Below are positions 1 to 45,877 of a DNA stretch of 64,000 bases, piece after piece; within the stretch, counting starts at the first letter, position 1; each line of letters begins with the position of its first letter. The stretch lies in NCBI GenBank assembly GCA_041653515.1, contig JBAZFG010000002.1, forward strand, positions 125,632 to 189,631. The letters are read 5' to 3'. The DNA comes from Candidatus Nanoarchaeia archaeon (GTDB lineage: Archaea; Nanobdellota; Nanobdellia; WJKC01). Both the position numbers and the translations under genes were made by a program. Below the pieces are notes generated by a model, which was given only the letters and a program-made list of their open reading frames with translations, made no database searches and was not told the origin of the DNA.

Positions 1-198
1 AAATATAACTGCGGCAAGCTAATCAGACCATTCATAAAAAAACACAAAAAGGAAGGGGTTAAAAGATTATTGTATAAAAAGTCATTTATAAGTTTTGAAT
101 CATTAAAAAAAGAACCAATTACTTATATGGGCTTTTTATTTATGAAATCTCTGGAGTTTACTGCGTGGTGCTTTGGTATCCTAAGAAGCTTTTTCTGA
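1..198 (+). CDS. 3' end of an ORF entering from upstream of the window (65 codons, no recognisable domain)
   Basis: Frame 1 is open from base 1 to TGA at 196-198. It overlaps the convergent radical SAM gene by 18 nt, as most convergent pairs here do. Confidence 0.25.
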   Translation, partial: KYNCGKLIRPFIKKHKKEGVKRLLYKKSFISFESLKKEPITYMGFLFMKSLEFTAWCFGILRSFF

Positions 199-1704
199 TT
201 TATTACCAGCAATTTTTAACTGCCTTGGTTTAAGTAAATCACTTGTTAGATAAGTTTTTAGTTTTTCAATGCTAAACTTCAAGTTATTGAAACTCATAAG
301 TTTGGGCAATATGTTACTGCAAAAGAAGATTGGATTTAATATATGTTTGATTCTTGTTTTATAAAATCTTTGTCTTGCTTCACCAACCAATTTGTTTAAT
401 TCACTTTCACTGAACTTTTTAGTTGGATAATAAGCATAAGATGTTTCTGCATCAGGAATTTCACTATTTAGCAATCCTTCTTTTTTGTATATATCATACA
501 ACTCAGTTCCTGTATAAGGTTGTGCGATATAAAATATTGCGTGGTCTATTCCAGATTCACAAGCATACTTAATCGTTTTTTCTATATCATCACGTGTTTC
601 ATAGGGGAATCCAATTATAAAATTAGCAGTAGTCCAAATACCTTTTTTGTTCATATATCTAATTAATCTTTTTGTTTTTTCAAGGTCAACAGGTTTTCCA
701 ATGAACTTTAATGTATTCTCAGAGCCGGATTCAATAGGCATACACATTCTATAAAACCCTGCTTTCTTCATTATATCTATTGTTTCTTCATCAAGAATCC
801 ATACACTTAATCCTGCAGGTGCGTTTAAAGTAATCTTCAAATTAGCTTTAATTATCAAATTGCATACTTCTTTAACTCTTTTTTTGTTAAGTATAAATGA
901 GTCGTCATAGATTACTATCTCTTTAGCGCCATATTTGTTATGTAATTCCATTATTTCTTTGAATACTCTTTTTGCAGAGTGAGGCCTCCATCTTCTTCTC
1001 CACATAGTTTTAGTGCTGCAGAAGATGCAGTTGTACGGGCAGCCTCTGCTTGTGACCATGGTACAAATCGGCTGGTTTAAAGCATAATAAAAAGTTTCTT
1101 TACCGTTTTTCATGTAAAAATCCATGTCAAGTGCATCTCTGTCCGGCAATGGAAGTGTATCAATATTATTAATTAGTGGTCTATCTTTGTTTATTATTAC
1201 TCTTCCATTACTTTTGTATGTTAATCCTAACACATTCTTTAAACTTTTCTTGTTACTAATAGCATTGAGTAGCTCTAGAGTTGTTATTTCACCTTCACCT
1301 CTTATTATGTAATCTATATAATTTAGTTTTATCAGGTTCTCATGTTCCATTGTTGGGTGAACCCCGCCGAGGATTATCTTTATAGACTTAAAATTGTCTT
1401 TCAGTACTTTGGCCAAATTAAGAGCATCATCTTTATGTATTGTAAAATTGCTTGATATGCCAATAATATCCGGTTTTATTTTATTTATTTCATTAAAAAT
1501 GTTTTTGTTGTTTATACCCACCCTGTATAAATCTTTCTTTATTCTTGTAACCTTGTTTTGATTTAAGGCTATACAGTCAATTATCTTAACTTTATGTCCG
1601 TTCTTTTTTAAAACTGCAGATATGTATGCTAAACCAAGAGGTTCAGTTATGGTTAATTTTGGGTATTTGCTTATTATTGAGGGTTGTATTAATGCTATTT
1701 TCAT
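181..1704 (-). CDS. Class B (B12-binding domain) radical SAM enzyme
   Basis: CxxxCxxC cluster motif in SRGCPYNCIFCS. The N-terminal half looks like a B12-binding Rossmann domain (LGLAYISAVLKKNGHKVKIID, IIGISS, ILGGVHPT). ATGA overlap with the upstream gene. Confidence 0.8.
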   Translation of the reverse strand: MKIALIQPSIISKYPKLTITEPLGLAYISAVLKKNGHKVKIIDCIALNQNKVTRIKKDLYRVGINNKNIFNEINKIKPDIIGISSNFTIHKDDALNLAKVLKDNFKSIKIILGGVHPTMEHENLIKLNYIDYIIRGEGEITTLELLNAISNKKSLKNVLGLTYKSNGRVIINKDRPLINNIDTLPLPDRDALDMDFYMKNGKETFYYALNQPICTMVTSRGCPYNCIFCSTKTMWRRRWRPHSAKRVFKEIMELHNKYGAKEIVIYDDSFILNKKRVKEVCNLIIKANLKITLNAPAGLSVWILDEETIDIMKKAGFYRMCMPIESGSENTLKFIGKPVDLEKTKRLIRYMNKKGIWTTANFIIGFPYETRDDIEKTIKYACESGIDHAIFYIAQPYTGTELYDIYKKEGLLNSEIPDAETSYAYYPTKKFSESELNKLVGEARQRFYKTRIKHILNPIFFCSNILPKLMSFNNLKFSIEKLKTYLTSDLLKPRQLKIAGNKSEKAS

Positions 1705-4430
1705 TTTTTCTCCTTAATAATAAGTTTTCTTATAAACTTAACCAATTGTAAAATCATTAGATAGATTACTATAATTATAAGTGATATGTTTGTAATTAAT
1801 CTTCCTAATCCTATATTATCCTGGTTCTTATGATAAATCCTGATGCTTAATTCTCCTGTTTTATTTATGTAAAAGCTATTCATGAAATAATTAGTTTTTA
1901 TTGAGTTGAATGATTCATTGCCAATAGTGGCAACCCAGTTCTTATCGAAAGTTTCTGTTAAAGTCAAGTAAAAAGGTGAATCTATTGTAATATTCAAAAT
2001 CATTTCTGACGGATTGATTCTTATGAAATTAGTGATGTCAACATTGTTATCTTTGTTTTCATAAGTAGCATTTTCATCAAACATTATTATTGTCTTATTG
2101 CTTAACTCTGAAATCATTTCTTCATAAGTTAATTCATATTCATTATAATCAACTAATTTAATATCATTAATAATATTGTTCTTACCTTGTGAATCAATAG
2201 AAATACAATTATTATTACTGCTTAAATTAATAGTGTAATTAACAATTTTAAATTCATCCTTAATACTAGAAGTTTTGACTTCTTTTATTGTGTTATTAAT
2301 GGAAATAGAAAATCCATCATAATTTGGTCCATCAACATACCTGATTAATAATTCGTATAATCCTTCTTCATTAAGACAGATGTCAAACTTGCTGTTATTT
2401 ATTGTGTAATAACCTTTTGAGTATGTTAATAAAGTAACTATATCCAAGTCATTTAGCATAAAGCGGTATATGCTATCGAAAGACATGTCTTGTATGAACT
2501 GCGGTTTATTTTCTTGAACAATTCTTAATAGATATAAAGCATCATTATTGATTATCCTGTTAATTTCATCACTAAAAGATACTCTGCTGTTTAGCAAACC
2601 GAATAGTAAGTCATTATAACTTTTATTGCAGAATATTATCTTATCCCCGTCTGAATAATTATCAAGAAATTGATTGATAACTCCGTCTTCTTGTTCTCCA
2701 AAGAATATCAAATCATTCTTATCTAAAAAATTGTGATTTAATAATTCTTGATAAGAATCCAATGAACCAATCACTAAATTTTTATGTTCATTTATCTTAA
2801 TTTGTGATACATTATCATTTATGTAAAGAGTGACATCATCACTAAAGCTTTTGTTTTCATATGATTTAAATATTGATTTGTTTATGTACTCTTTATCATC
2901 AAAGAAGTCACCAACTAACATGAAATCATTATGTAATAAAATATATTTTATTCCTAATGCACTAAATAATTTTTTTAATTCTGAAGCATCATTTGAGTTT
3001 AATATATCAAAGTATAGTGACATTATAAACTTGAAATTTAAGTCATTGTAATTATCCTGATAGATAGTATTAAAATACATTGGGAATATTGGTATTGTAT
3101 TATTAGCCCAATCAAATACTAATTGTCCATAACTGAAAGGAAGCCACAAGGCTTTTTGAGTGTCATTTTTGAAGTAATCATTAATATCATAATAACTATT
3201 GGGTATGCTAACTGCTTTAACTTCTCCTTGATTTAATTTAAAATAACCTGATAATAATGGGCAGTTTACTACAATAATTGATACTAATACTATTGATATG
3301 ATAATTTTTTTATACTTTCTTAATTTGTTATTAATCTCCAATAGTCCACTAATAAACTGTGAAAAAAGGAAGGCATAACAAAAGCTTAATACAAAGTTTA
3401 TCTTGTCTGGCTCTCGTATCAACCAAGCCCATGAACCTAATATTGGTATTTTGTTAAGATTTGAATAAATTAATCTTAAAGGCCCAAAAGTTCCTTGGGA
3501 TAATAATAATACTAAAAGTGCTAGTAAAGTGAATGATTTGATTGATTTATCCTTTTTAATTGCTATCGCGCAGAAACTTGCAAATGGCACTATAAATGAC
3601 AATAAATAAGTTATCGGATTACTGTCAGTAGCACCCTTTAAGTAGGATCCTACAAAAAAACCATACAATCTTATTGAATTAGCAATGTTTGAGTTGCTGC
3701 TTAAGAATTCTGATTGACTAAACGGCAGGTGATATATTGTTGTATTTAATCCAGGGAGTACAAAATAACTTATTAATGGAACAAAACAAACAAGAATGAT
3801 GATCATTGTTAAAATTTTGTCTTTGAATTTATGTTTATCAATTAAAATTATGGGTAGCATACACAATGAAGTGTATATTAAATTCCTTGGGTCAAATGAC
3901 ACTATTAGTAACAATAATGACACAACTGGCGAGTATCTTTTATTTTCAAAAGATTTTATCAATGTAAGACAAATTAATGGGGCAATAGAATAACCTAATA
4001 ATATTGCAAAATAACCTAATGATGTTGTATAAACCCAATGATTTAATGTGTAAACCAGGCTTCCTGATAACGCAACTATTATCTTTTGGTTTTGTTTTAA
4101 CTTACCACTTAACTTAATTAGAAGTAAATAAGAACTAAAACTTATCAAGAAATAAACAGAGATGTACAAACATTTTGTTAAGAATTCAAGTGGCAACGGA
4201 ATTGCAGCAATTACCCTCCAAATTAAACTTTGAGGCAAGTCACCACCGCTAGGATAATTGCTTATTGGGTTCCAAGAATAAAAATAATAATTGTTTATGA
4301 TATCCTTATCAAACTGGAATACTAAGTCATTGTACAATGGTAGTCCGGGGTTAAATAATACATTGTGAGTTATTAGAACTGTAAGTAATAGTGAGTAAAC
4401 TAATCCTGTGATTAATATATTATTTTTCAT
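1701..4430 (-). CDS. Large polytopic membrane protein with C-terminal extracytoplasmic domain and terminal TM anchor; GT-C/YfhO-like architecture, function unassigned
   Basis: About 400 aa of hydrophobic TM segments, then a soluble Asn-rich domain. The C-terminal block FDKNWVATIGNESF..NSFYINKTGELSIRIYHKNQ is paralogous to the same block in 4427-7279. Confidence 0.5.
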   Translation of the reverse strand: MKNNILITGLVYSLLLTVLITHNVLFNPGLPLYNDLVFQFDKDIINNYYFYSWNPISNYPSGGDLPQSLIWRVIAAIPLPLEFLTKCLYISVYFLISFSSYLLLIKLSGKLKQNQKIIVALSGSLVYTLNHWVYTTSLGYFAILLGYSIAPLICLTLIKSFENKRYSPVVSLLLLIVSFDPRNLIYTSLCMLPIILIDKHKFKDKILTMIIILVCFVPLISYFVLPGLNTTIYHLPFSQSEFLSSNSNIANSIRLYGFFVGSYLKGATDSNPITYLLSFIVPFASFCAIAIKKDKSIKSFTLLALLVLLLSQGTFGPLRLIYSNLNKIPILGSWAWLIREPDKINFVLSFCYAFLFSQFISGLLEINNKLRKYKKIIISIVLVSIIVVNCPLLSGYFKLNQGEVKAVSIPNSYYDINDYFKNDTQKALWLPFSYGQLVFDWANNTIPIFPMYFNTIYQDNYNDLNFKFIMSLYFDILNSNDASELKKLFSALGIKYILLHNDFMLVGDFFDDKEYINKSIFKSYENKSFSDDVTLYINDNVSQIKINEHKNLVIGSLDSYQELLNHNFLDKNDLIFFGEQEDGVINQFLDNYSDGDKIIFCNKSYNDLLFGLLNSRVSFSDEINRIINNDALYLLRIVQENKPQFIQDMSFDSIYRFMLNDLDIVTLLTYSKGYYTINNSKFDICLNEEGLYELLIRYVDGPNYDGFSISINNTIKEVKTSSIKDEFKIVNYTINLSSNNNCISIDSQGKNNIINDIKLVDYNEYELTYEEMISELSNKTIIMFDENATYENKDNNVDITNFIRINPSEMILNITIDSPFYLTLTETFDKNWVATIGNESFNSIKTNYFMNSFYINKTGELSIRIYHKNQDNIGLGRLITNISLIIIVIYLMILQLVKFIRKLIIKEKK

Positions 4431-7279
4431 TTATTATTACCTTTAATTTTTAGTATTACAAATAAGCATAGGGCAAAGTACCCAATAATACCAATTATGC
4501 CACCAATCAATCTGTTAAGTCTTACAATAAAACCTGAAATTATGATTATAAAAAATGATAATGCAAGTAAATTATTATCAGGTTCTTTTAAAAATAAATA
4601 AATTAAATCATTTTTGATTAATTTATTACTAAATTTTTTGAGATTAGTTTTATACACTTTGATTTTTTTTGGATAATCTTTTGCATTTTTGCCATGTTTG
4701 AATGTTAATAATATGTTAAAGCAAATTATTTTGAGAGTTGATATTGTATACACAAAAAATAATTTTATATACTTATACAAGTTTTTAGTGTGATTACTTG
4801 ACAGTATTTTTGGTAATAGGGTAATAATCAATAATATTAAAGTAACTAATGAGATACTTATCCCTGCACTGTAAGTTAATTGTTCAGACTGATACAATCT
4901 AACAGTATAACTACCCGTTTCATTAATATAAAACGCATTAGCGAACCCGTTAACTACAAAATGATTAAATTTAGTGTTATTTGATTCTGCAATCCAGTCC
5001 TCATCATAACTCTCTGAAAAGACTAAGAAGAATGGTTCACTATTGTTTACGTTGATATTGTATTCGGCAGGATTGGTTTTTATGAATGAAATGTCTGCTT
5101 CATGTACTGCATTGTTGTTTTTTTGTTCTATTGTTTCTAGATCATTACTTATTGCAATACTTGCAAGAAGGGCTTCTCCATTGCTTGTAATGTTTATCCT
5201 ATCAGTTGCGCTGCCAAAATAATGCCATGCAATATCAGTTGAATTGCTTGCTATACTATTAGCAATTATACTGCCTGTAAACTTAATGTACAACCCGCCA
5301 GAAGTGTTAATTGGTATTGTAACTATTGAATTTGGCATTAATGTGATTATTGAACTGTCAATGCCGCTGGTGTAAACAACGTTGTACCACCACCAGCCAA
5401 ATGAATAATCAAATAATCTTGCCCAGCCGTTTGAAGCATTGCTTGTTGTTATGAATTCAGAAGGCTTTAATTTAGTTGAATTGATTAACTCAGAATCAAA
5501 GGTGTTGTCATTGATTTCATCAACCAGATTGACAAGCGCGCTGTCATCTTGTTGTATTGCAAAGAAAATCGCGGGTTTTGAACAATTGTAATCAAGCAGG
5601 TTGTTAATATTAGAGTCAACTAATGAGCTGTGCTCTGCAGCGTATATTACTGGAAGACTATTATTAACCTCAAAGACTTTGATATTGTTATAACTATTCA
5701 TTGTTATTTTTGTCTCGTTTAACTGGCTCTTCAAGTAATCAGTTTTAGATAAACCAAATGATGATACAACTTCAGGGTAATTCCTCGCGTATATTGAATA
5801 ATTGCCAAATTCGGAAATAAAATCATCCCTTGATATAACATACTTAATATTTAGTAGTCTTAACAGGCTGCTTAAATTTGAGTCTGACTCACTACGTATT
5901 AAATTTGATAAAAAAGCAGTAACTCTATTGGAATCTGATTCTACACTTATAACTTGATTAAGTGATGATTTTGGTGAGTATGTAATCATAGGGTCAATGC
6001 CTGCATAATCCAATCCTGTCATGCTTATTGGCTGGTCCAAAGGGAAGTAAAGAACCCTATAATCACTAGGGTCATTAATTAATGAATTAGTTATTTCTCC
6101 ATAACCATTACTCCATTGGTAATCTTGTAACTGCCCCATAAAATTTCCTGAAAATAATGGCAGCGCAAACAATATTATTGCAATTGGAAAAAGAATCCTT
6201 TTGCTTTTTAACAGGTTATAACTTGAGCCTAATAACAGTGCATAGCAGAATGCTGGGATAAACAATAAGTGCTGTGATTCCCTAAACAAGCCAATAAGTG
6301 GTATATTCAAGAATGCTTCCCCGAATGGTGGGTTTGGGCCTTTTGATAAGAACAAACCGATTGCAGTGGTTATTATAAAAAACCATATTTGTTTATCCTT
6401 TGATTTAATGTTAGGCAACAGTAGAATTAGTATTAGTGCGCCGCCACCAATTACTGGTATTAACAGCCAGTTCCATATAGCATCAACAAAATATTTGGCA
6501 CCGATTAATAATGGCACTGCAAAAAATGGAGGGGCATTTCTTGTGATTATGTCAATGCTTGTTGAATAATTAATAGTCGAACTTGACGTGCCGAAATTTA
6601 ACAATATTGGCATTAACCAGAATGAATGGGTTAATAACAAACTTGCGGATATAACTAATGAATTAAAAAATAATTTTTTATCTCTCATGAATATAGAATA
6701 ACAAATCATCAACAAAGGCACCATTATAAAGAACTGCAATTGTGTTACAGTAAAAGTTATCAGTATTATTGAGAGAATCAAATTTGTTTTATTGTCCTTT
6801 GATTTTATGAATGACAGGAATAATAATGGTGCAAGCATGTAAGAAAACAAGTAAGTGATGTGGCCTGCGACAACCCTGTTAAAAACAATTGGGTTTAATG
6901 CATATAACAATCCAGATAATATCCCTGCTTTGTTATTCTTTAAGACATGCCTGCTTAATAAAAACATAAAATAAGCACTGCAGAATACAAATGCTACTAT
7001 TAGCATTCTAGTTAAGAAAACACCCCCCAGACCTATTGAGCTTAGTAAACCAAGGCCTGCGTAAAAAAAGAAAACGCTTTGATAGTCCCATGTTGTTCCT
7101 AAATCTCTTTCATTCCATACATAAAAAAGGTTTTCTGATCCCTTGGTTATCATCTCACCAAATTGAGGTATACTCCAGTCATGTCTGTAACCAATTGCTC
7201 CATTTGCAGCCAGAATCCTCCAGGTTACAAGAATGCTTATAATGGCGAATAAGCAGATCACTAAAAAGTTCTTTCTCAC
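4427..7279 (-). CDS. Tandem paralogue of 1701-4430: large polytopic membrane protein, GT-C/YfhO-like architecture
   Basis: Same layout as 1701-4430. C-terminal block YDEDWIAESNNTKF..NAFYINETGSYTVRLYQSEQ aligns with the neighbour. ATGA overlap at 4427-4430. Confidence 0.5.
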   Translation of the reverse strand: MRKNFLVICLFAIISILVTWRILAANGAIGYRHDWSIPQFGEMITKGSENLFYVWNERDLGTTWDYQSVFFFYAGLGLLSSIGLGGVFLTRMLIVAFVFCSAYFMFLLSRHVLKNNKAGILSGLLYALNPIVFNRVVAGHITYLFSYMLAPLLFLSFIKSKDNKTNLILSIILITFTVTQLQFFIMVPLLMICYSIFMRDKKLFFNSLVISASLLLTHSFWLMPILLNFGTSSSTINYSTSIDIITRNAPPFFAVPLLIGAKYFVDAIWNWLLIPVIGGGALILILLLPNIKSKDKQIWFFIITTAIGLFLSKGPNPPFGEAFLNIPLIGLFRESQHLLFIPAFCYALLLGSSYNLLKSKRILFPIAIILFALPLFSGNFMGQLQDYQWSNGYGEITNSLINDPSDYRVLYFPLDQPISMTGLDYAGIDPMITYSPKSSLNQVISVESDSNRVTAFLSNLIRSESDSNLSSLLRLLNIKYVISRDDFISEFGNYSIYARNYPEVVSSFGLSKTDYLKSQLNETKITMNSYNNIKVFEVNNSLPVIYAAEHSSLVDSNINNLLDYNCSKPAIFFAIQQDDSALVNLVDEINDNTFDSELINSTKLKPSEFITTSNASNGWARLFDYSFGWWWYNVVYTSGIDSSIITLMPNSIVTIPINTSGGLYIKFTGSIIANSIASNSTDIAWHYFGSATDRINITSNGEALLASIAISNDLETIEQKNNNAVHEADISFIKTNPAEYNINVNNSEPFFLVFSESYDEDWIAESNNTKFNHFVVNGFANAFYINETGSYTVRLYQSEQLTYSAGISISLVTLILLIITLLPKILSSNHTKNLYKYIKLFFVYTISTLKIICFNILLTFKHGKNAKDYPKKIKVYKTNLKKFSNKLIKNDLIYLFLKEPDNNLLALSFFIIIISGFIVRLNRLIGGIIGIIGYFALCLFVILKIKGNNK

Positions 7280-7287: not shown

Positions 7288-8443
7288 TTACCTTTTTTGT
7301 GTTATAAATGTTTTCTTAACGTTGTTCAGCATGTCAGTTAACTGCAGCATTACTTTTTTGGTTGAGTATTGCTTTGCGTAAGCTTTTAGTCCTGGTCGCG
7401 GTCGCTCTTTTAGTAATTTGATTATTGCGTTAGCCCAATTAATTGCTTTATAAGGCTCGACTAACTCACCGTTTTCCTTGTTTACTAACTCGTTAAGCGG
7501 CCTGACGTTGCTGGCCAGCACTGGCTTGCCAAGAGCCCATGACTCAAGCAATACTAGTCCAAACCCTTCAACAGTGCTTGGGTTAACAACGAATTTTGAT
7601 TCACTGATTATCTTTAATTTATCAGCATGGCTGACCCTGCCAGTAAACGTAATACTGTTATTAACTCCGAGCCTGCGCGCGAGTGCCATTCACTGCTTCT
7701 TCATTGGACCATCACCAACTATTACGAACTTGGCTTTAGGGTCACGGCCGAGCACTGAAAGCATAGCCCTAATTATTGTGTTAACGTTCTTGTAGAAAAC
7801 GTGCCGGCCAATAAAACAAAACTGATTCTTGAGTCCGGCTCGCAGGTTTTTGTAATCAGCCAAGTCAATCATACAAGGCATGACTTTGATTGGCCTCCTA
7901 ATACCAGCCTTAATTAAATTATCCCTGCTGACACTGCTGATAGTGTGAATTAATGCTGGCCTGAATTTGAGGATGATTTTCTCAAGCAATGGACCCATAA
8001 TTCCGAGGCCTTTGCTGACACCTATCTGCCTGCTCCACTTACTTTAGAACGGGCCACTTGAGTAAAAATCAAAGATGCTCATCAAATGAGAGATTTTAAG
8101 AAAATAAGAAACTAAATGAGCACTGACTGCCGGCGTGTAAGTATTAGAGTGAATGACGTCGGAGTCCTTAGCAATTTTCAGGCCAGCCCTGAATGACTTA
8201 ATAATAAATGAAGCATTATTCAACAAGCTCATGTTAAGGTGGCCTTTGTAATCAATTGGCCTGTCAACCAGGTAAACTTGATGCTGTCAATCTTCTCAAA
8301 AGAAGTAGTGCCCCTTAATTGCTGGGTGATAACATTGACTTCATGCTGCGCTTAACTAACTCGCGCGCGTACTGAAAGAACAAGTACTCGCCACCCCCAT
8401 AGATTGCTGGCGGGTATAAGTGAATGAATTGAGTTATTTTCAT
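7288..8443 (-). pseudogene. Decayed duplicate of the GT4 glycosyltransferase gene at 10659-11789
   Basis: Collinear with the intact paralogue from ATG (8443) to stop (7288), roughly three quarters identical by eye in the C-terminal 95 aa. In-frame TAA at 8044-8046 and TGA at 7690-7692. At least two frameshifts between ~8260 and ~8350. The ORF track splits it into three pieces (7288-7689, 7690-7998, 8044-8232). Confidence 0.85.
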
Positions 8444-9228: not shown

Positions 9229-10662
9229 ATGAATGATAATTACTCATCAATGTTTGGCTCTGACAATAATTTTAAGGCCTTTAGTGTGTCGCAGGACATG
9301 TTCCCCTTGACTGTAAACGAGTCAGTTATAAAAACCGCGGTTGATAAGGGTGCGAGTGAGAACAAGTGGGTTCTTGCTTTTGTTATTGGAACAAAGCCGT
9401 GCTTTTACAAGTTTTATGGCTCAATAATAGCTGCCAAGCAAATGGGTATACCTTACATTGTTATTAATGCTAATCAGCATTATGATGATAATCTTACTTA
9501 TGGTATTAAGGAGTTTGTTATTGATGTTGCCTGTAATCTTAATATTCGCGGCGGCTTGCTACAGAAATCTGTTGAGCTAATGCTGAAATTTAATTGGTTA
9601 TCAGATTATTTTAATAAAATAAACCCTAAAGCTAAAGTTGTTCCTGTTGTGCTTGGTGATACAATATTAACTAGTATTGTGCCTGCAGCCTGGATGTTTT
9701 CAAGGAATGAAAAAGCAATACAAAATGAGGCTGGTCTTAGGAGTATGGCGCCATCAGTTTTGAGAGCTAAGAATTTTGATGTTAAGGATTTTTATGAAAA
9801 ACAAGTGACTTGTGATTGGTTCCTATTGAGAAACGAGCCTTTCCCTGAGCAATGGGATACTTTTGTCTCAGCTGCTGGTTGCGAGTATCATTTTACTCCG
9901 TTGGAGCTTAACAAACAACACTTAATAAGAGAAGGTTATCCTGAGGAAAATATATTTGTTACTGGTGGCGTTGTTGTTGACGCTCTTAATTTGAAGTTAA
10001 ATGAAAAACCAACTAAAAGTGTTTTTGATATTTACCCGCAACTTAATGATGGTGACTGGATTCGTATGGATGTTCATCGCAGGGAGAATCTCACGCCATC
10101 AAGGTTTAAGGCTATTATTGGTTCAATTAAAGGTTTGTTAGATAATGGTTTTAAAGTTAATTTTGTTGAGATGAACGCGACTAAATTTGCTATTGATAAA
10201 TATAATTTTAGAAAAACAATTGATGGCCTGAAAATGAATAAGAATTTTTTAATGACTGATGTCTGGCCTGAGTACGCTAATGTTGTTGAGTTTTATAAGT
10301 CAAAGAATTGTTTGACTGCTTTTACTGATAGTGGTGGGGTTCAGGAGGAAATGAATTTATTGGGAAAGCCTTGTTTGACTTGTCGTTTTAACACTGACCG
10401 ACCTGAGACTGTTTTTGATGCCAAGACTAACTTGTTGGTGCCCCCAATTAGCAGTGATTTTATTTTTAATTCAATTAAACATCTGAATGATTCTGGCTTA
10501 TTAAGTAATCTATCAAAAGGCAAGCCAATATATGGCGCTGGTGTTGGTAATAAATTTATGAGCGTCCTTGATGATTTAATGAAGAATAATAAGCGGTTGT
10601 TTACTTGGTCTCATCAGTTCTTGGGTTTTGGTAATGATGATGATGACGCTGATTTTCTTTAA
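9229..10662 (+). CDS. UDP-N-acetylglucosamine 2-epimerase family protein (long form with N- and C-terminal extensions)
   Basis: Family motifs GTKPCFYKF (GTRPE-like), HRRENL and DSGGVQEE. Confidence 0.75.
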   Translation: MNDNYSSMFGSDNNFKAFSVSQDMFPLTVNESVIKTAVDKGASENKWVLAFVIGTKPCFYKFYGSIIAAKQMGIPYIVINANQHYDDNLTYGIKEFVIDVACNLNIRGGLLQKSVELMLKFNWLSDYFNKINPKAKVVPVVLGDTILTSIVPAAWMFSRNEKAIQNEAGLRSMAPSVLRAKNFDVKDFYEKQVTCDWFLLRNEPFPEQWDTFVSAAGCEYHFTPLELNKQHLIREGYPEENIFVTGGVVVDALNLKLNEKPTKSVFDIYPQLNDGDWIRMDVHRRENLTPSRFKAIIGSIKGLLDNGFKVNFVEMNATKFAIDKYNFRKTIDGLKMNKNFLMTDVWPEYANVVEFYKSKNCLTAFTDSGGVQEEMNLLGKPCLTCRFNTDRPETVFDAKTNLLVPPISSDFIFNSIKHLNDSGLLSNLSKGKPIYGAGVGNKFMSVLDDLMKNNKRLFTWSHQFLGFGNDDDDADFL

Positions 10663-11789
10663 ATTAAAGTTTTGAATATATTTTCTAGTAGTGGCGTGAC
10701 TTTCTTGGTTGAGTATTGTTTGGCGTATTTTTTTATTCCTTGTTTATTTTCTTTTAGCATCTTGTTGATTTTATTTGCCCAGTCGATTGATTTGTAAGGT
10801 TCGGCCAGGTCGCCGTTTTCTTTGTTGATTAATTCATTCATTGGCCTGACATTGCTGGCTATTACTGGTTTGCCTAATGCCCATGACTCGAGTATTATTA
10901 TGCCAAATCCTTCGACTGTGCTTGGGTTGACTACGAATTTTGATTCATTTATTATCCTTAATTTATGCTCGTGACTAACTCGGCCAGTGAATAATACGCT
11001 GCTGCTAACCCCTAATCGTCTGGCTAGTGCCATCCATTGTTTTTTCATTGGTCCGTCACCAACTATTATGAATTTGGTTTTCGGGTTCTTGCCAAGCACT
11101 GATGGCATTGCTTTGATGATTGTGTCAACGTTCTTGTAAAAGACATGCCTACCAACATAACAAAATTGGTTCTTCTCTTCAGTTCTTGGCGTCTTGTAAT
11201 CAGTTAAGTCTATCATGCAGGGCACAACTCTTATTGGTCGCTTAACGCCTGCTTTTATCAAGTCCTCTTTACTGGCGTTGCTGATAGTGTGAATCATTGC
11301 TGGCCTGATTTTTAGTATTATTTTTTCCATTAATGGCCCGATTATACTGAGCCCTTTGCTGACTCCGCGCTGACCACTCCAATTATTCCAGAAACTGCCT
11401 TGAGAGTAAACATCAAAGATGCTGATAACATGGGGTATTTTTAAGCAATAGGATACTGCGTGACCACTTAATGCTGGCGCGTAAGTGTTGGAGTGAATGA
11501 TATCAGAATCCTTAGCTATCTTTAATCCTTTTTTGAATGATTTAATGATGAATGAAGCATTGTTCATTAAACTCATATTCAAGTGGCCTTTGTAATCAAT
11601 TGGTTTGCCGACCCGATGGATTTTAACCCCGTTTAATTCTTCATAGCATTTAGTGCCTTTAAGTCGCTGAGTAATAACATTAACTTCATGGCCTCGTTTG
11701 GCTAATTCTTTAGCGTACTGGAAGAACAAGTACTCGCCGCCGCCGTAGATTGCTGGCGGGTATAATTGACAGAACTGGGTTATTTTCAT
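10659..11789 (-). CDS. GT4 (GT-B fold) glycosyltransferase, intact copy of the 7288-8443 pseudogene
   Basis: C-terminal EGFGIIILESWALGKPVIAS (E-x7-E region). N-terminal YPPAIYGGGEY, typical of GT4. Confidence 0.8.
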   Translation of the reverse strand: MKITQFCQLYPPAIYGGGEYLFFQYAKELAKRGHEVNVITQRLKGTKCYEELNGVKIHRVGKPIDYKGHLNMSLMNNASFIIKSFKKGLKIAKDSDIIHSNTYAPALSGHAVSYCLKIPHVISIFDVYSQGSFWNNWSGQRGVSKGLSIIGPLMEKIILKIRPAMIHTISNASKEDLIKAGVKRPIRVVPCMIDLTDYKTPRTEEKNQFCYVGRHVFYKNVDTIIKAMPSVLGKNPKTKFIIVGDGPMKKQWMALARRLGVSSSVLFTGRVSHEHKLRIINESKFVVNPSTVEGFGIIILESWALGKPVIASNVRPMNELINKENGDLAEPYKSIDWANKINKMLKENKQGIKKYAKQYSTKKVTPLLENIFKTLI

Positions 11790-32780: not shown

Positions 32781-32820
32781 AAGACCGCCTCTTCTGTTGC
32801 TTTAGCGAAGGCGTGGTCTT
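32781..32820. terminator. Imperfect GC-containing hairpin between convergent genes
   Basis: aagaccgcct (32781-32790) pairs with aggcgtggtctt (32809-32820), leaving a 2-nt bulge. This is the only convergent junction in the window with a real spacer. Confidence 0.3.
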
Positions 32821-33958: not shown

Positions 33959-35506
33959 TTGTTAATGCTAGATAAGTTATGGCAGTACGTAGTTGATAAT
34001 AAAGCGTTCTTCATAGTTATTCCATTAATATTGTTATGGACTCGTTTTGATTACGAGTCTTTTGCGATGAGCGTGACCCCGTTTGGCGTGCCGTTAGATG
34101 ATGCTTATATTGGTTATCAGTTCGCGCGCAACTTTGCTCAGGGCAGAGTATTAGAATATAATGTTGGCGAGCAGACTACTGGCGCGTCAACCTTGTTATG
34201 GCCTTTGGTGATGGCATTGATTTACTTATTGACTGGTTACTTATACCCTAATTACGTGATTGCTTTTCTAGTCATATCAAAAGTCACTGCCACAATCCTT
34301 TACTTCTTGTCAATCACTGGCATTTATTATTTGAGCCAGAAGTATTATTTCAAGAATAAGTTTGCTAGCGTGATGCTCTGCTCGTTCCTTGCTTTAGAGT
34401 TGCACATGCTTTGGGGCACGCTGAGTGGGATGGAGATGTCATTGTTTGCTTTCCTAATAACGTTCATGCTGATTGCTTTGCGTGAGAATAAGATTAAGCT
34501 TGGCGCAGTGCTTGGTGGTTTGATTGGTTTAACAAGACCTGAGGGCATGGTTTTGTACCCTGGGTTAATTCTCTTATTATTCTTCTTTAAGTTAGTTAAG
34601 ACTAAGAAAATAGTTTTTAGGGAAGTTAAAGAATTATTATTGCAATTAATTATTTTTGTTGTGATAATGATCCCTTGGCCAATCCTTAATTACATGATTT
34701 CAGGCAAGCCTTTGCCAGCGACTTTTTACATGAAAGGCGGCGTGGTTAGTCTTGCTAATTTGTTGGGTGGTTTCACGTTCGTGTTTGACGTGCTTAATTT
34801 GTTTGGCAGTGATTACGCTTTGTCATTATTATTCGTGGCTGGCGTGATTATTTATTTTGCGCTGAAGAAAGAGTTCAGTCCTGAGGCCTTACTTGCTATA
34901 ATCTTCATGGTTCTTTACGGCACAGCAATCCCTAACCTGACTGGTTTTGGTCGTTATTACATGCCTGTTTTCCCAATAATCGCTTTGGTTGCTTTCTACT
35001 CATTCAAGTTAATTGAGGGTGTTTTACCTTCTAAGTTTAAGAAGTTTGGTTCAGCGTTATTAATGCTCGTGCCAATGATAATAATCACTGTTGTGGCTTC
35101 ACCAATGGCTAATTATCAATTAAGTAATTATGATGTTTGGAAACAAGTTTATGGACATAACGTTTATAGTATTAATCATTTTGAGGTGGCAATGGCTTAC
35201 TGGTTGATTGATAATTCACAAATAACTGATGTTGTTGGCACTTGTGATATTGGTGCGCCTAGTTTTATTGCTAACCGCTACTTGGTTGATGTGTTTGGTT
35301 TGATTGGGCCTGAGGTCAGGTCTTGGAATGGAACTTATGATAGTTACTTGCGTTATCGCAACGTTACTTATTATATTGATTACCCTGCTAACGCTAATGA
35401 TAAAGTTAAGGCTAATTGCACTATTGTTTACAATACTACTTACTTGTCAATGATTACTATTACTGCCGGTTACCAGATGGCTATCTATAAATGCGAGTGG
35501 CTTTAA
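33959..35506 (+). CDS. Polytopic membrane protein, GT-C-like
   Basis: First-loop motif VPLDDAYIGYQFARNFAQG, about 12 TM segments and a C-terminal soluble domain. The likely start is the ATG at 33965. Confidence 0.5.
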   Translation: MLMLDKLWQYVVDNKAFFIVIPLILLWTRFDYESFAMSVTPFGVPLDDAYIGYQFARNFAQGRVLEYNVGEQTTGASTLLWPLVMALIYLLTGYLYPNYVIAFLVISKVTATILYFLSITGIYYLSQKYYFKNKFASVMLCSFLALELHMLWGTLSGMEMSLFAFLITFMLIALRENKIKLGAVLGGLIGLTRPEGMVLYPGLILLLFFFKLVKTKKIVFREVKELLLQLIIFVVIMIPWPILNYMISGKPLPATFYMKGGVVSLANLLGGFTFVFDVLNLFGSDYALSLLFVAGVIIYFALKKEFSPEALLAIIFMVLYGTAIPNLTGFGRYYMPVFPIIALVAFYSFKLIEGVLPSKFKKFGSALLMLVPMIIITVVASPMANYQLSNYDVWKQVYGHNVYSINHFEVAMAYWLIDNSQITDVVGTCDIGAPSFIANRYLVDVFGLIGPEVRSWNGTYDSYLRYRNVTYYIDYPANANDKVKANCTIVYNTTYLSMITITAGYQMAIYKCEWL

Positions 35507-36897
35507 GCAGAGTTATTAATGTAGAATACTATTAGTTGCGCTTGAGCTGCTGATGGGTATGCTTTGATTGGCATGATGAACGAGTAGTTAAGAGTGTAAG
35601 CATAAGCAGGGTATTGTTCGTAAGCGCTGATAACTAGGAATGAGTAATTACTTACTTGTTGGAGGAATAATTCTTCAGTGGCTGGGAACGCGTCAACTGT
35701 TTTCTCGCTGTAATAAGTTAGTTGTGGCACGCTGTTAGCCATGACGTTGCCTTCGTAAGGCAGTAAGAACTCGCCTGCTTGCTTGACATATAAGTATGAA
35801 TCCTTAGCATTATTAATGCTTGTTAACCCTGTTGGCAGGTTCTCAATAATAATGATTATTGTTATTATCGCTAACGCGTAATTAATGATTTGCTTGTTTT
35901 TACTCACGTAACTAATAATGAAGCTTGCGCCAAGAATAGCTGATAAGCAAGCAAAAGGCAGTAAGTGTATTAGGAACCTAACTTCTTTGACGCTGGTTAA
36001 CAATGAGTAGAACGCTAAGTAAATGAATAAATTAAGTGCTATGAACTGCACTTTCTTATTCTTTAATTTGAAGATGATTGGTATGATGCCAATGAACACT
36101 AGTAAACCCATTAATATACCATAATTAAACAGCATGCTAGTTATGTAATAGAACATGTCACCTGCTTGCGCTCCACCAGTCGCGTTAACATTAAATGATA
36201 GGAATGATAGTGGCGTGTATACTGGGTTGTTGAATACTATGATGTCATAAATCATTAGTGGCGCGTAACCGATTAACGCGCCAAACAACCAATAATAATC
36301 CTTTAATTTTTTCTCTTTATTAATTAATGAGTAAGCAAGGTATACTACGCTCCCAATTATTGCCGTGAACTTAATACTAGCTGCTAAACCCAATAATAAA
36401 CCACTAGGCAACCGCTTGCCTTTAATGAATAATAACGCGCTTAGCACTAATAGGAACGCGCTTGGCACATCAATAGTGAACCGTAGTGACCAGTAAAGGA
36501 AGACCCATTGAAAACACATTATTAACCCTGTAATAATCCCATACTTCTCGCCTAATAATTCCTTACCTAAGTAATAAGACGCGATTGTTAAGCCCAACCC
36601 GAATAAGATGTTAATGAACCTGATTACTAATTCATTATAACCAAAAGGCAATGATAACCCATATAATATTGCTGGGTAAACGATTGACCTGCCATCCCAC
36701 CAACCAGTTGTTGGCGTGCCAATAAACAAGCTTTTAGTCATCACTAAGTATTGAGCCTCATCCCACCAGACAGTGCTATAAGCACTAATTAATGGCAGTC
36801 TTGTTATCAGGAAGACCGCACTGATTAAACCAACCCAGAAGTACTTATTATTCACTAAATCCTTTAAGTTAATCTCGTCATTATCATTCATATTCAA
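35503..36897 (-). CDS. GT-C fold membrane glycosyltransferase (ArnT/PMT, GT39/GT83-like)
   Basis: First-loop motif VWWDEAQYLVMTKSL; polytopic. The likely start is the ATG at 36891 (MNDNDEINL). Confidence 0.6.
   Translation of the reverse strand: MNMNDNDEINLKDLVNNKYFWVGLISAVFLITRLPLISAYSTVWWDEAQYLVMTKSLFIGTPTTGWWDGRSIVYPAILYGLSLPFGYNELVIRFINILFGLGLTIASYYLGKELLGEKYGIITGLIMCFQWVFLYWSLRFTIDVPSAFLLVLSALLFIKGKRLPSGLLLGLAASIKFTAIIGSVVYLAYSLINKEKKLKDYYWLFGALIGYAPLMIYDIIVFNNPVYTPLSFLSFNVNATGGAQAGDMFYYITSMLFNYGILMGLLVFIGIIPIIFKLKNKKVQFIALNLFIYLAFYSLLTSVKEVRFLIHLLPFACLSAILGASFIISYVSKNKQIINYALAIITIIIIIENLPTGLTSINNAKDSYLYVKQAGEFLLPYEGNVMANSVPQLTYYSEKTVDAFPATEELFLQQVSNYSFLVISAYEQYPAYAYTLNYSFIMPIKAYPSAAQAQLIVFYINNSA
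36822..36894. repeat. Direct repeat copy 1 (5' end of the GT-C gene); partner at 39059-39128
   Basis: The first 33 nt (tgattaaaccaacccagaagtacttattattca) are identical in both copies. The remainder has ~10 substitutions and one 3-nt indel. Confidence 0.85.
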
Positions 36898-36945: not shown

Positions 36946-38328
36946 TTAGTTTAAGAGAATCTTTGAAGGTTTAAAGAAATTATTCAGAATGTTCCTAATA
37001 GGTGCTTCCCTGTGTGAGATATTATTGAATATATAAGCTAGTTTGGTAAAGTCTATTAACTCATCGAATGGAATCTTTTCTTTCAGCAGGTAAGTGCCTT
37101 TCCTAATCATGTTGTCATAATCAAGCCATTCCATTGGTTTGATAACACCTTTCTTCTTGAGTAATTCATAATAATCTGCGCCAGGGTCAGGGGTAAATAC
37201 GTAGAAATGAGCAAAGTTAGTTTTATTCTTAATGGCAAAATTAATTGTTTTAATTATAGAATCCCTTGTTTCACCTGGTGCCCCAATGATGTGGCTTGCA
37301 CTAATTTCTATACCAAAAGCCTTTAATTTTTCAATACCTTGGCTTATCTGCCTGATTGTTAAGCATTTGTTCATTGACTTAAGTATTTCATCATCCCCTG
37401 ATTCAACCCCAACAAAAGCTCTCTTGTAACCTGTTTTATGCATTATATTGAGCAAGTCATTATTTATTGTGTCAAGCCGAGTGTTACTGCCCCATGTGAT
37501 GTCAAGTTTTTCTTTTTTAATTAGACTTGTGAATTCAGTGATAAACTTATGATTAGCTGTCATTGTATCATCATAAAACATAATCTTATTGGATTTAGTG
37601 ACGTCAATAACCTGTTTTATTTCATTGATAACACTTGATGGGCTTCTAAAATTAACCTTTTTTCCAAACATTTTTTTAGAAGCACAAAACTTGCAACCAA
37701 AAGGGCATCCTCTTGAAGCTATTAATACATTATAAGTATCTTCTGCCCCAAGTTTTCTATGATTACTTGGTTTGTATTTATCTAATGGGAATAAATCTCT
37801 GGCTGGGAAAGGCAGGTCATTCAGGTCAGTACTGGTTGGTTTTGTGGGGTTTAGGATGATCTTCTTGCCTTTTTTGAATACAATACCATTAACCTCTTCT
37901 AACCTTTGGTTAGCCAGTATCTTAACAATGGTTTCTTCTCCTTCACCTAGCACGCCTATATCAAAACAGTTTAATGAAATGGTTTCTAAAGGTTCTGATG
38001 TGATGTGAATGCCGCCTAGAATTATCTTTGCATTAGTTTTTGATTTTATTTCACTGGCTATCTTAATCGTATTCTTCATAAGAGGGGTTGTTGATGTAAG
38101 ACCTATAAACTTAATGTCCTTTGAGTTAATCCTTTTTATTACATCCTCAATAGTGAATTCTTCAACATTTAAGTCAAGGCATTCAACCCTATAACCTGCT
38201 TTTCTTACGCTTGCGGCAATGTATGCTAGTCCAAGGGGTAAGCTTACTGTTTGGTTTTCCTGTCTTGAGATGTTGAAATGTTTTTTTTCAAAAAAATCTT
38301 TTTGCGGGGGATTAATGAGCAATAACAT
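36946..38328 (-). CDS. Class B (B12-binding domain) radical SAM enzyme
   Basis: SRGCPFGCKFCAS cluster motif. N-terminal LPLGLAYIAASVRKAGYRVECLD, FIGLTS and ILGGIHIT form the B12-binding-type domain. Markedly AT-rich. Confidence 0.8.
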   Translation of the reverse strand: MLLLINPPQKDFFEKKHFNISRQENQTVSLPLGLAYIAASVRKAGYRVECLDLNVEEFTIEDVIKRINSKDIKFIGLTSTTPLMKNTIKIASEIKSKTNAKIILGGIHITSEPLETISLNCFDIGVLGEGEETIVKILANQRLEEVNGIVFKKGKKIILNPTKPTSTDLNDLPFPARDLFPLDKYKPSNHRKLGAEDTYNVLIASRGCPFGCKFCASKKMFGKKVNFRSPSSVINEIKQVIDVTKSNKIMFYDDTMTANHKFITEFTSLIKKEKLDITWGSNTRLDTINNDLLNIMHKTGYKRAFVGVESGDDEILKSMNKCLTIRQISQGIEKLKAFGIEISASHIIGAPGETRDSIIKTINFAIKNKTNFAHFYVFTPDPGADYYELLKKKGVIKPMEWLDYDNMIRKGTYLLKEKIPFDELIDFTKLAYIFNNISHREAPIRNILNNFFKPSKILLN

Positions 38329-38417: not shown

Positions 38418-38573
38418 ATGCGTAAGTACAAGCCAAAGTATTTGTACTTAATTAAACAATTAAAAGATAGAGGTGTTGTGCATACTAAAATAAGGAGTGA
38501 TAAACAGTTATGCATTAAGTTAACACCTACTGGTCATTTTCTGTTAAAAATTTTGAACAAAGCGGGTAATTAA
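38418..38573 (+). CDS. Small ORF (51 aa), possibly a winged-helix-like DNA-binding protein; below the ORF-track cutoff
   Basis: Translates to MRKYKPKYLYLIKQLKDRGVVHTKIRSDKQLCIKLTPTGHFLLKILNKAGN. Its TAA shares a TTAA with the convergent NUDIX stop, a pattern seen at three other convergent pairs. Confidence 0.3.
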   Translation: MRKYKPKYLYLIKQLKDRGVVHTKIRSDKQLCIKLTPTGHFLLKILNKAGN

Positions 38574-38986
38574 TTCCGTATTAAATTGATGAAATCAATT
38601 ATACCTGGTAATAACTCGTCTTCCTTTAATTTATTAATTTCAATCCATTTTAGGTCCTTTGTTTTATGGTCATCAAGGTTTGGTTGCCCGCTGATTAATT
38701 GTGATTCATAGCATAGTACAATAACGTGTTTTCTATGGTCAGGGTAATCCCATATATTTGTATGAACATATGGAATCATTTGTTTTGGTTTAACAATATA
38801 ACCTGTTTCTTCTAATACTTCTCTGGCCACAGCATCTTCAGGTTTCTCGCCAAAATCAATTTTTCCACCTGGTAATTCCCATTTTAAATGCGCGCCCGGC
38901 ATAATTTCTTCATCCCTTAGTAAAAGTAGTATTTCATTACCTCTTTTAATTAGGGCTGTCGCGACAATAATTATTTGGTCATTCAT
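38570..38986 (-). CDS. NUDIX hydrolase
   Basis: Nudix box GGKIDFGEKPEDAVAREVLEETG. Confidence 0.85.
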   Translation of the reverse strand: MNDQIIIVATALIKRGNEILLLLRDEEIMPGAHLKWELPGGKIDFGEKPEDAVAREVLEETGYIVKPKQMIPYVHTNIWDYPDHRKHVIVLCYESQLISGQPNLDDHKTKDLKWIEINKLKEDELLPGIIDFINLIRN

Positions 38987-45848: not shown

Positions 45849-45877
45849 TAATTGTTTCTTTTTATTATCTTATATAC

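What the first reader, a model, noticed from the sequence alone, without database searches (positions are those of the whole stretch)
181..7279. AT-rich operon: two tandem giant membrane paralogues plus a B12-radical SAM enzyme
Three minus-strand genes are chained by ATGA overlaps (4427-4430 and 1701-1704). The two 909/950-aa proteins share the same architecture: a TM bundle, a large Asn-rich external domain, a conserved C-terminal beta-rich block (..W.A......F......N.FYIN.TG......Y), and a terminal TM anchor. The block resembles the C-termini of YfhO/GT-C-type enzymes, but no catalytic motif can be assigned. The class B radical SAM partner recurs at 36946-38328, where a second copy sits next to another GT-C gene. 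That hints at a recurring GT-C + B12-rSAM functional pair. Composition is far lower in GC than the cluster core: hand counts give 12/60 at 2161-2220 and 15/60 at 2401-2460, against 28/60 at 13201-13260.
Basis: partly seen in the sequence, partly recalled or inferred. Interest (0 to 1): 0.5.

Follow-up and report, generated by a model that had tools for sequence, protein, structure and literature searches.

The report
AftD-like membrane glycosyltransferases plus B12 radical-SAM enzyme
Two large membrane proteins in a tiny (DPANN) archaeon's sugar-coat gene island are distant relatives of the mycobacterial cell-wall glycosyltransferase AftD, and the vitamin-B12 radical enzyme encoded next to them is an occasional island companion rather than a fixed partner, so the locus is a fairly ordinary new member of known families.

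Summary

The third gene is a genuine B12-binding radical SAM enzyme, but it reaches no curated family cut-off.

The proposed GT-C + B12-rSAM pair is not conserved. Only 3 of 14 independent loci have such an rSAM within about 10 kb, and the P3 orthologue loci do not. A small GT2 gene is the common neighbour (11 of 14).

The source is a Candidatus Nanoarchaeia MAG with a glycosylation island of more than 50 kb. The low-GC block runs at least 10 kb past the window start and holds a third GT-C and a third rSAM.

Verdict: new members of known kinds; modest interest.

The parts
4427..7279 (-). P3, a 950-aa AftD/YfhO-type GT-C glycosyltransferase. It has an N-terminal TM module of about 11-12 helices with D34 in the first outer loop and R333 in an 'LFRE' loop, an external alpha/beta plus beta-sandwich domain (~380-797), one TM helix (798-825), and about four further low-confidence C-terminal helices. 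The start codon is GTG.
1701..4430 (-). P2, a 909-aa deeply diverged paralogue of P3 with the same GT-C module (D35, R339). Its external domain includes a CBM35/CBM6-like beta-sandwich, and it has a single C-terminal TM anchor.
   Evidence: 26% identity to P3, E 5e-14. AF2 model pLDDT 75.7, pTM 0.77. Foldseek: AftD E 1.2e-10, TMq 0.52; AftA, STT3 and CBM35 also match. No Pfam hit. Nearest relative is P0013, 30% identity over 25% of the query.
181..1704 (-). rSAM1, a 507-aa cobalamin-binding (class B) radical SAM enzyme, translationally coupled to P2. Its reaction is unassigned.
   Evidence: PF02310 75 bits and PF04055 106 bits. CPYNCIFC at residue 222. Best NCBIfam hits are all far below cut-off: Sden_1168 219/575, BchE 209/481, HpnJ 190/578. 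Nearest solved structures are MgmA 9CCB (E 8e-16), AprD4, OxsB and TokK.
1..198 (+). 3' end of a convergent 266-aa GT2 glycosyltransferase gene. It overlaps the rSAM1 stop region by 18 bp, and most of it lies outside the window.
   Evidence: L005 gene 11507-12307, mapped to window coordinates; TGA at 196-198. It is 46% identical to a GT2 beside GT-C homologue P0010 and 35% identical to one beside P0011.
7288..8443 (-). Decayed GT4 (Glycos_transf_1) pseudogene directly upstream of P3. It marks the boundary between the higher-GC conserved core and the low-GC variable block.
   Evidence: tblastn shows 71% identity to the intact GT4 at 10659-11789, spread over three frames, plus an in-frame TGA at 7690-7692.
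36946..38328 (-). rSAM2, a second class B radical SAM paralogue (460 aa).
   Evidence: 33% identity to rSAM1, E 1e-59. Pfam B12-binding + Radical_SAM. No NCBIfam cut-off reached.
35503..36897 (-). Alg9/PMT_2-type GT-C glycosyltransferase (464 aa), 48 bp downstream of rSAM2.
   Evidence: PF03901 49.5 bits and PF13231 40.3 bits.

Best explanation
P3 and P2 are GT-C-fold glycosyltransferases of the AftD/YfhO branch. The most likely mechanism is as follows.

Inferred from the fold and from known GT-C chemistry: each takes a sugar from a dolichyl-phosphate-linked donor at the outer face of the membrane. Each transfers it to a growing cell-surface glycan (S-layer or other glycoprotein glycan, or a surface polysaccharide). 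The first-loop Asp (D34/D35) and the loop Arg (R333/R339) sit at the membrane-proximal active site, and the external beta-sandwich / CBM-like domains hold the acceptor.

Shown: the two are deeply diverged paralogues, not recent duplicates. P3 belongs to the conserved core of the cluster. P2 and rSAM1 belong to a low-GC, genome-specific variable block that continues past the window and holds a third GT-C, a third rSAM, a GT2, a GT4 and two SAM methyltransferases.

Inferred: the paralogues probably differ in donor or acceptor specificity.

rSAM1 is a cytoplasmic cobalamin-dependent radical SAM enzyme (shown by its domains). It most likely tailors a sugar precursor of the same glycan, for example by methylating an unactivated carbon of a nucleotide- or dolichol-linked sugar. 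This step is inferred only from gene context. rSAM1 is an optional accessory of such islands, not an obligate partner of the GT-C.

For: Sequence: the 51-sequence family profile hits the AftD chains 6w98/6wbx at E 2.5e-26 over profile positions 52-732. The profile search also retrieves PF11847 and PF09586 proteins.

Active site: D34/D35, R333/R339 and W762/W832 are at least 90% conserved in 51 sequences. The Asp aligns, through the PF11847 protein P0036, to the AftD 'PD-T-K39-L-D41' segment. The Arg aligns to 'PLRNVHK361'. K39, D41 and K361 are essential in AftD (bioRxiv 10.1101/2019.12.22.885152).

External domain: the P2 and P3 models match CBM35/CBM6/CBM36 folds.

Context: the island carries two STT3/AglB genes, an AglH-like GT4, a Wzx-like flippase, sugar-nucleotide enzymes and many GT2/GT4 genes. 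P3 orthologues are syntenic beside Epimerase_2, GT4, an STT3-like gene and PGM. A GT2 lies within the flanks in 11 of 14 loci, matching the GT-A + GT-C logic of multi-component transmembrane glycosylation systems (PMC8035078).

rSAM: domains and cluster motif. Class B rSAMs recur inside glycan clusters L003 (5-6 copies), L005 (two, plus rSAM2 at 36946-38328 in the window) and L015 (one, two genes upstream of the GT-C).
Against: No biochemical data exist for any close relative. Neither the donor lipid and sugar nor the acceptor is identified.

P3 is below the Pfam cut-off for GT-C_AftD, and P2 hits no Pfam model.

Equivalents of the AftD residues E251 and D474 were not mapped. Whether D34 corresponds to AftD D37 or D41 is unresolved.

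The adjacent GT2 matches no polyprenyl-phosphate sugar synthase model, and no GtrA-type flippase was looked for.

The rSAM substrate rests on gene context only. Its top family scores (P-methyltransferase, BchE, HpnJ) point to different chemistries. DPANN archaea are not expected to make cobalamin (my own knowledge, not tested here).
Confidence: 0.65

Rival explanations
1. One reading: GT-C and class B rSAM form a specific, recurring functional pair. For example, the rSAM makes the modified lipid-linked donor that its neighbouring GT-C alone can use.
For: rSAM1 is translationally coupled to P2. rSAM2 lies 48 bp from an Alg9/PMT_2-type GT-C. rSAM3 lies two genes from the third AftD-like paralogue. 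L015 has rSAM - GT4 - GT-C on one strand. 3 of 14 loci is probably above a genome-wide random expectation.
Against: 11 of 14 independent loci of the family have no class B rSAM within the flanks. These include the P3 orthologue loci L001 and L002 and the nearest P2 relative L013. In L003 none of the 5-6 rSAMs is adjacent to the GT-C. The rSAM1 relatives L011 and L012 have no GT-C neighbour. The rSAM copies are 25-36% identical with no orthologous pairs. By my rough estimate (about 6 GT-C among about 55 island genes), two immediate adjacencies out of three rSAMs has a chance probability of about 0.1.
Confidence: 0.12
2. P2 and P3 are non-catalytic GT-C-derived membrane scaffolds or glycolipid-handling proteins, like MmpA, which shares the AftD N-terminal TM module and assists trehalose-lipid export.
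For: NCBIfam MmpA matches P3 at E 3e-9 (35.9 bits) over residues 84-435. MmpA is reported to share homology with the N-terminal 668 residues of AftD and to lack recognisable catalytic domains (PMC8698533).
Against: The MmpA score is far below the 210-bit cut-off. The first-loop Asp and loop Arg typical of active GT-C enzymes are retained in both proteins and in at least 90% of 51 relatives. Large CBM-like external domains are present, as in AftD. The locus is a glycosylation island.
Confidence: 0.08
3. rSAM1 has nothing to do with the glycan. It modifies a lipid (for example an isoprenoid or dolichol carrier, as HpnR, HpnP and the ladderane-type rSAMs act on lipids) or a protein, and sits in the operon by chance of island assembly.
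For: Among the best NCBIfam hits are lipid- and tetrapyrrole-directed enzymes: HpnJ 190 bits, HpnR 121, ladderane-type 122, BchE 209. The nearest solved structure, MgmA, methylates a protein. The association with GT-C is not conserved.
Against: All these scores are far below the family cut-offs. Every locus where such rSAMs were seen (L003, L005/window, L015) is a dense sugar-nucleotide/GT cluster with no lipid-synthesis genes. The ATGA coupling to P2 argues for co-expression.
Confidence: 0.2

Closest known systems
Mycobacterial arabinofuranosyltransferase AftD (PDB 6W98/6WBX; Pfam PF11847 GT-C_AftD, formerly DUF3367)
   Different: 9-14% identity. P2 and P3 are 909-950 aa against ~1,400 aa, with fewer external modules. 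P2 has one C-terminal TM helix and P3 about four, against five in AftD. P3 falls below the Pfam cut-off and P2 gives no hit. The host is an archaeon with dolichol carriers and no arabinogalactan. ACP binding is unknown.
YfhO (Pfam PF09586), the GT-C enzyme of the CsbB/GtcA/YfhO teichoic-acid glycosylation system
   Same: The family profile retrieves many PF09586 proteins. The C-terminal 'W.A...G....N...G' beta block and the first-loop Asp are shared. Pairing with a small GT2 gene is common (11 of 14 loci), as with CsbB-YfhO.
   Different: No PF09586 hit for P2 or P3, even at E <= 1. No teichoic acids exist in archaea. A GtrA-type flippase partner was not looked for. The neighbouring GT2 is not recognisable as a CsbB/GtrB-type enzyme.
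Class B (cobalamin-dependent) radical SAM enzymes that tailor sugars or sugar-lipids, e.g. GenK/GenD1 (gentamicin C-methylation) and HpnJ (hopanoid glucosamine ring contraction)
   Same: N-terminal B12-binding domain plus a CxxxCxxC radical SAM core, encoded among glycosyltransferase genes. HpnJ is among the top NCBIfam hits for rSAM1, rSAM2 and rSAM3.
   Different: Scores are 160-220 bits against cut-offs of 480-580, so rSAM1 is a member of none of these families. Its substrate and chemistry are unknown. My literature searches found no paper describing a class B rSAM in archaeal glycosylation.

Membership tests
GT-C glycosyltransferase superfamily | Multi-helix N-terminal membrane module with the GT-C fold | tested here: met
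GT-C glycosyltransferase superfamily | Conserved acidic residue in the first extracytoplasmic loop after TM1 | tested here: met
   P3 D34 and P2 D35 occupy a column at least 90% conserved in 51 relatives that include PF11847 and PF09586 proteins.
GT-C glycosyltransferase superfamily | Use of a polyprenyl-phosphate-linked sugar donor at the outer membrane face | not testable with these tools
   Needs biochemistry. Inferred only from the fold.
Pfam PF11847 GT-C_AftD | Whole-protein score at or above the 26-bit gathering cut-off | tested here: not met
   P3 scores 22 bits (E 4.7e-5). P2 gives no hit at E <= 1.
AftD (mycobacterial) | Essential residues K39, D41, E251, K361, D474 | tested here: inconclusive
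   The Asp column aligns to the D37-x-K39-x-D41 segment, and R333/R339 align to R357 in 'PLRNVHK361'. E251 and D474 equivalents were not mapped, and the exact residue register is unresolved.
AftD (mycobacterial) | 16 TM helices (11 + 5) and three CBMs plus a structural beta-sandwich | tested here: not met
   P2 has about 11-12 helices plus 1. P3 has about 11-12 plus about 4, the last ones at low confidence. The external domain is about 420-470 aa with fewer modules.
Pfam PF09586 YfhO | Match to the family model | tested here: not met
   No hit for either protein at E <= 1. The relationship shows only at profile level.
Class B (cobalamin-dependent) radical SAM | N-terminal B12-binding domain plus radical SAM core with a CxxxCxxC motif | tested here: met
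   PF02310 scores 75.4 bits (cut-off 32.1) and PF04055 scores 106 bits (cut-off 29.5). CPYNCIFC lies at residues 222-229.
Named class B rSAM families (Sden_1168 P-methyltransferase, BchE, HpnJ, ApyD, PhpK, HpnR, MgmA, AprD4) | NCBIfam curated cut-off | tested here: not met
   The best score is 219.5 bits against a 575-bit cut-off. All 48 hits are below cut-off. The same holds for rSAM2 and rSAM3.
Multi-component transmembrane glycosylation system (GT-A polyprenyl-P-sugar synthase + flippase + GT-C) | A dedicated GT-A (GT2) that makes the lipid-P-sugar donor, encoded with the GT-C | tested here: inconclusive
   A 266-aa GT2 is convergent with the operon, and related GT2s (35-46% identity) accompany distant GT-C homologues. 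It matches no lipid-P-sugar synthase model.
Multi-component transmembrane glycosylation system (GT-A polyprenyl-P-sugar synthase + flippase + GT-C) | GtrA/GtcA-type flippase | not tested
   Small ORFs were not screened. Only a Wzx-type Polysacc_synt gene (18075-19508) was seen.

The most novel reading that the evidence does not exclude
Cobalamin-dependent radical SAM enzymes are a recurrent, so far undescribed tailoring layer of surface-glycan biosynthesis in DPANN and other uncultured archaea. There are three copies in this island, five or six in L003, and one in L015. On this reading they make C-methylated or radically rearranged sugars on nucleotide- or dolichol-linked precursors, and AftD-like GT-C enzymes then install those sugars outside the cell. 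That would also make the cell coat of a B12-auxotrophic symbiont depend on scavenged cobalamin.
Probability: 0.35. Interest if true: 0.55.

Novelty: new member of a known kind. Interest (0 to 1): 0.27.

Why it matters
The finding gives a fold and a testable active site (D34/D35, R333/R339) to two proteins that Pfam leaves unannotated. It places them in a very large, mostly unannotated AftD/YfhO-like branch of GT-C enzymes: 33,815 cluster representatives, spread across archaea, CPR bacteria and others. This helps annotate archaeal and candidate-phyla glycan islands.

The one possibly new biological point is that B12-radical SAM genes recur inside some archaeal glycan clusters. My literature searches found no description of this. 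If these enzymes act on sugars, they would imply unusual, for example C-methylated, sugars in the envelopes of ultra-small archaea, and a cobalamin dependence of their coat. The specific GT-C/rSAM pair that made the finding look interesting is not conserved.

Tried and rejected
1. Word-indexed homologue searches suggested near-orphans: 11 hits for P3 and 4 for P2. The exhaustive profile search showed this was a sensitivity artefact (33,815 relatives).

2. The search for related loci with the 15-sequence alignment failed because no conserved stretch was available. The 5-sequence alignment returned only 5 genome loci.

3. The metagenome scan with rSAM1 gave only two weak relatives (26-31% identity), neither informative about pairing.

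4. The narrow P3-orthologue profile did not reach AftD in the PDB sequence search. Only the broad profile did.

5. The afdb50 fold library was unavailable.

6. I considered a recent tandem duplication of P2 and P3 and rejected it. P3 is 51% identical to P0002 but only about 26% identical to P2.

7. I considered that the low GC merely reflects Asn/Ile/Lys-rich composition and rejected that as the sole cause, because GC3 is also low. The same core-high / variable-low pattern starts at the P3 orthologue in L001 and L002.

8. I considered the shorter 908-aa gene call for P3 (Logan assembly) and rejected it. It would remove TM1 and the conserved Asp, which align with all orthologues.

9. Literature searches for B12-rSAM enzymes in archaeal or DPANN glycosylation returned nothing relevant.

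Full report
OBSERVATION. Both junctions read ATGA on the minus strand. AAGGAG / AAGGT Shine-Dalgarno-like motifs precede the starts, which fits translational coupling. GC is 0.299 across 181-7279 against 0.384 for the rest of the window. GC3 of the three genes is 0.27, 0.25 and 0.30, against 0.396 +/- 0.069 for the 44 other ORFs. P2 and P3 are paralogues: 26% identity over the N-terminal ~430 residues, E 5e-14.

SOURCE AND CONTEXT. Identical proteins are on record from a MAG named Candidatus Nanoarchaeia archaeon (locus tags WC307_02180 and WC307_02185, contig 191,793 bp). The window is dominated by a glycosylation island. It contains:
- two STT3/AglB genes (12863-14770 and 40340-42958);
- an AglH-like GT4 (39122-40141);
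- an Alg9/PMT_2-type GT-C (35503-36897);
- a Wzx-like flippase (18075-19508);
- nucleotidyltransferases, PGM/PMM, a GHMP kinase and an Epimerase_2;
- many GT2/GT4 genes;
- two further radical SAM genes, two DUF362 Fe-S proteins and a GH99-like gene.

A second assembly of the same genome (L005) shows what lies beyond window position 1. In order, there is a convergent 266-aa GT2 whose last 198 nt are window 1-198, then two SAM methyltransferases, a GT4, and an 829-aa Pfam-less protein that is a third paralogue of P2/P3 (hhalign probability 100%, E 2.5e-39). After that come a thymidylate kinase and a third class B rSAM, 32% identical to rSAM1.

WHAT THE GIANT PROTEINS ARE. Pfam gives only a sub-threshold GT-C_AftD hit for P3 (22 bits against a 26-bit cut-off) and nothing for P2. 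NCBIfam gives a weak MmpA hit for P3; MmpA itself is reported to share the N-terminal membrane module of AftD (PMC8698533).

A 15-sequence family profile retrieved proteins carrying PF11847 (AftD) and PF09586 (YfhO). A 51-sequence profile hit the sequence of Mycobacterium abscessus AftD (6W98/6WBX) at E 2.5e-26, spanning profile positions 52-732.

ACTIVE SITE. In the 51-sequence alignments three positions are at least 90% conserved:
- an Asp just after TM1 (P3 D34 / P2 D35);
- an Arg in the loop '...P..LFRE' (R333 / R339);
- a Trp in the C-terminal block.

Through the PF11847 protein P0036, the Asp column aligns to the AftD segment 'PD-T-K-L-D' (native D37, K39, D41; the 6W98 chain index equals native numbering plus 3). 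The Arg aligns to 'PLRNVHK' (native R357...K361). K39, D41, E251, K361 and D474 were shown to be essential in AftD (bioRxiv 10.1101/2019.12.22.885152). The exact register (D37 or D41) and the E251/D474 equivalents remain unresolved.

FAMILY SIZE. The word-indexed searches made P2 and P3 look like near-orphans. The exhaustive profile search found 33,815 cluster representatives at E <= 1e-3, 18,147 at E <= 1e-10 and 6,864 at E <= 1e-30, typically 900-1,400 aa. These are therefore diverged members of a very large family that is poorly covered by Pfam.

THE RADICAL SAM ENZYME. rSAM1 has a B12-binding domain, a radical SAM core and a CPYNCIFC motif. Its best NCBIfam scores are all far below cut-off: Sden_1168 P-methyltransferase 219/575, BchE 209/481, HpnJ 190/578. 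The same holds for rSAM2 and rSAM3. The nearest solved structures are MgmA (9CCB, E 8e-16), AprD4, OxsB, TokK and CysS. It is a bona fide class B rSAM with an unassigned reaction.

IS GT-C + B12-rSAM A RECURRING PAIR? I gathered 14 independent loci encoding relatives of P2/P3: L001=L006, L002, L003=L004, L005=window, L007-L010 and L013-L018. I scanned them with my own HMMs and with the precomputed Pfam labels.
- Class B rSAM genes occur within the flanks in 3 of 14. In this genome, two of the three copies are directly adjacent to a GT-C. In L003 there are 5-6 copies, none adjacent. In L015 the order is rSAM - GT4 - GT-C on one strand.
- The P3 orthologue loci L001 (51% identity) and L002 (42%) have none. 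Neither does L013, which holds the nearest P2 relative.
- The two rSAM1 relatives found in metagenomes have no GT-C neighbour.
- The eight rSAM copies are only 24-36% identical to one another, so there are no orthologous pairs.
- A small GT2 is present in 11 of 14 loci. The 266-aa GT2 beside this operon is 46% identical to the GT2 near P0010 and 35% identical to the one near P0011.
- Multiple GT-C paralogues in one locus occur in 6 of 14 loci.

The conserved logic is thus GT-A + GT-C, as in multi-component transmembrane glycosylation systems (PMC8035078). The rSAMs behave as optional tailoring genes of some glycan islands.

COMPOSITION AND EVOLUTION. The low-GC stretch is not limited to the operon. 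It continues for at least 10 kb past the window start (GC 0.26-0.33, GC3 0.22-0.31). The same switch from a higher-GC conserved core to a low-GC variable block begins at the P3 orthologue in L001 and L002. In this genome the boundary is marked by a decayed GT4 pseudogene (7288-8443). It is a degenerate duplicate of the GT4 at 10659-11789: 71% identity, two frameshifts and an in-frame TGA. I infer that P3 is a vertically inherited core gene. I also infer that P2 and rSAM1 belong to a fast-turnover, probably horizontally exchanged, variable region comparable to those of bacterial O-antigen and capsule loci.

MECHANISM. P2 and P3 most likely transfer sugars from dolichyl-phosphate donors to surface glycans on the outer face of the membrane. 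The fold is shown; the chemistry is inferred. rSAM1 most likely tailors a cytoplasmic sugar precursor of the same glycan; this is inferred from context only. Rival readings and their refuting results are listed in the Rival explanations section: an obligate pair, a non-catalytic MmpA-like scaffold, and an rSAM acting on a lipid or protein.

VERDICT. A catalytic motif can be assigned. The GT-C/rSAM pair is not conserved. These are new members of known kinds, and interest is modest. The only potentially new point is the recurrence of B12-radical SAM genes in archaeal glycan islands, for which my searches found no literature.

Noticed in passing
window 7288-8443 (-): GT4 (Glycos_transf_1) pseudogene. 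It is a decayed duplicate of the intact GT4 at 10659-11789 (71% aa identity), with two frameshifts and an in-frame TGA at 7690-7692. It sits exactly at the switch from higher-GC core to low-GC variable block.
   Followed up: yes
L005:15052-17541 (-) and L005:19018-20388 (-), about 3.3-8.7 kb beyond the window start: A third AftD/YfhO-like GT-C paralogue (829 aa; hhalign E 2.5e-39 against the family) and a third class B rSAM (32% identity to rSAM1) lie just outside the window in the same low-GC block. A GT2, a GT4 and two SAM methyltransferases are there too.
   Followed up: yes
window 12863-14770 (+) and 40340-42958 (-): Two STT3/AglB oligosaccharyltransferase paralogues (635 and 872 aa) in one island. 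The shorter one is conserved next to P3 orthologues in L001 and L002.
   Followed up: partly
window 22255-25465 and 32819-33880: Two more radical SAM genes overlap by 4 nt: 23247-24356, a class-B-like core without a B12 domain, and 24353-25465 with a SPASM domain. Next to them is a DUF362+Fer4 protein (22255-23286), and a second DUF362 lies at 32819-33880. These may be electron-donor partners for the rSAMs.
   Followed up: no
L003:1238-7585 and L003:18647-20107 (same locus as L004): One glycan cluster around GT-C homologue P0004 carries five or six class B radical SAM genes interleaved with GT2 genes and a methyltransferase. This is an unusually high density.
   Followed up: partly
L015:3738-10457: On a TARA ocean contig, a class B rSAM (498 aa), a GT4 and a 1,314-aa AftD-like GT-C (P0006) lie on one strand, inside a sugar-nucleotide cluster.
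   Followed up: partly
L010:3197-13622; L018:5561-12229; L008: Tandem arrays of AftD/YfhO-like GT-C paralogues recur elsewhere: three in a Daviesbacteria MAG, a PF11847 protein plus P0017 in L018, and two or three in a gammaproteobacterial MAG.
   Followed up: partly
window 7154-7279 (P3 N-terminus): The Logan assembly's gene call starts P3 at Met43 (908 aa), which would delete TM1 and the conserved Asp34. The 950-aa GTG start used by NCBI fits all orthologues.
   Followed up: yes
window 1701-7279 (external domains of P2 and P3): The predicted external domains carry 16 (P2) and 13 (P3) N-X-S/T sequons, so the enzymes may themselves be heavily N-glycosylated.
   Followed up: no
window 38570-38986 (-): A 138-aa ORF with a Nudix-box-like motif (GGKIDFGEKPEDAVAREVLEETG) lies between rSAM2 and the AglH-like GT4. 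The motif was read by eye and not checked with a profile.
   Followed up: no
window 44893-46393, 54098-55597, 56824-57300: Other low-GC pockets (GC 0.27-0.33, GC3 0.24-0.34) lie outside the glycan genes. They include a 499-aa ORF with no Pfam hit.
   Followed up: no
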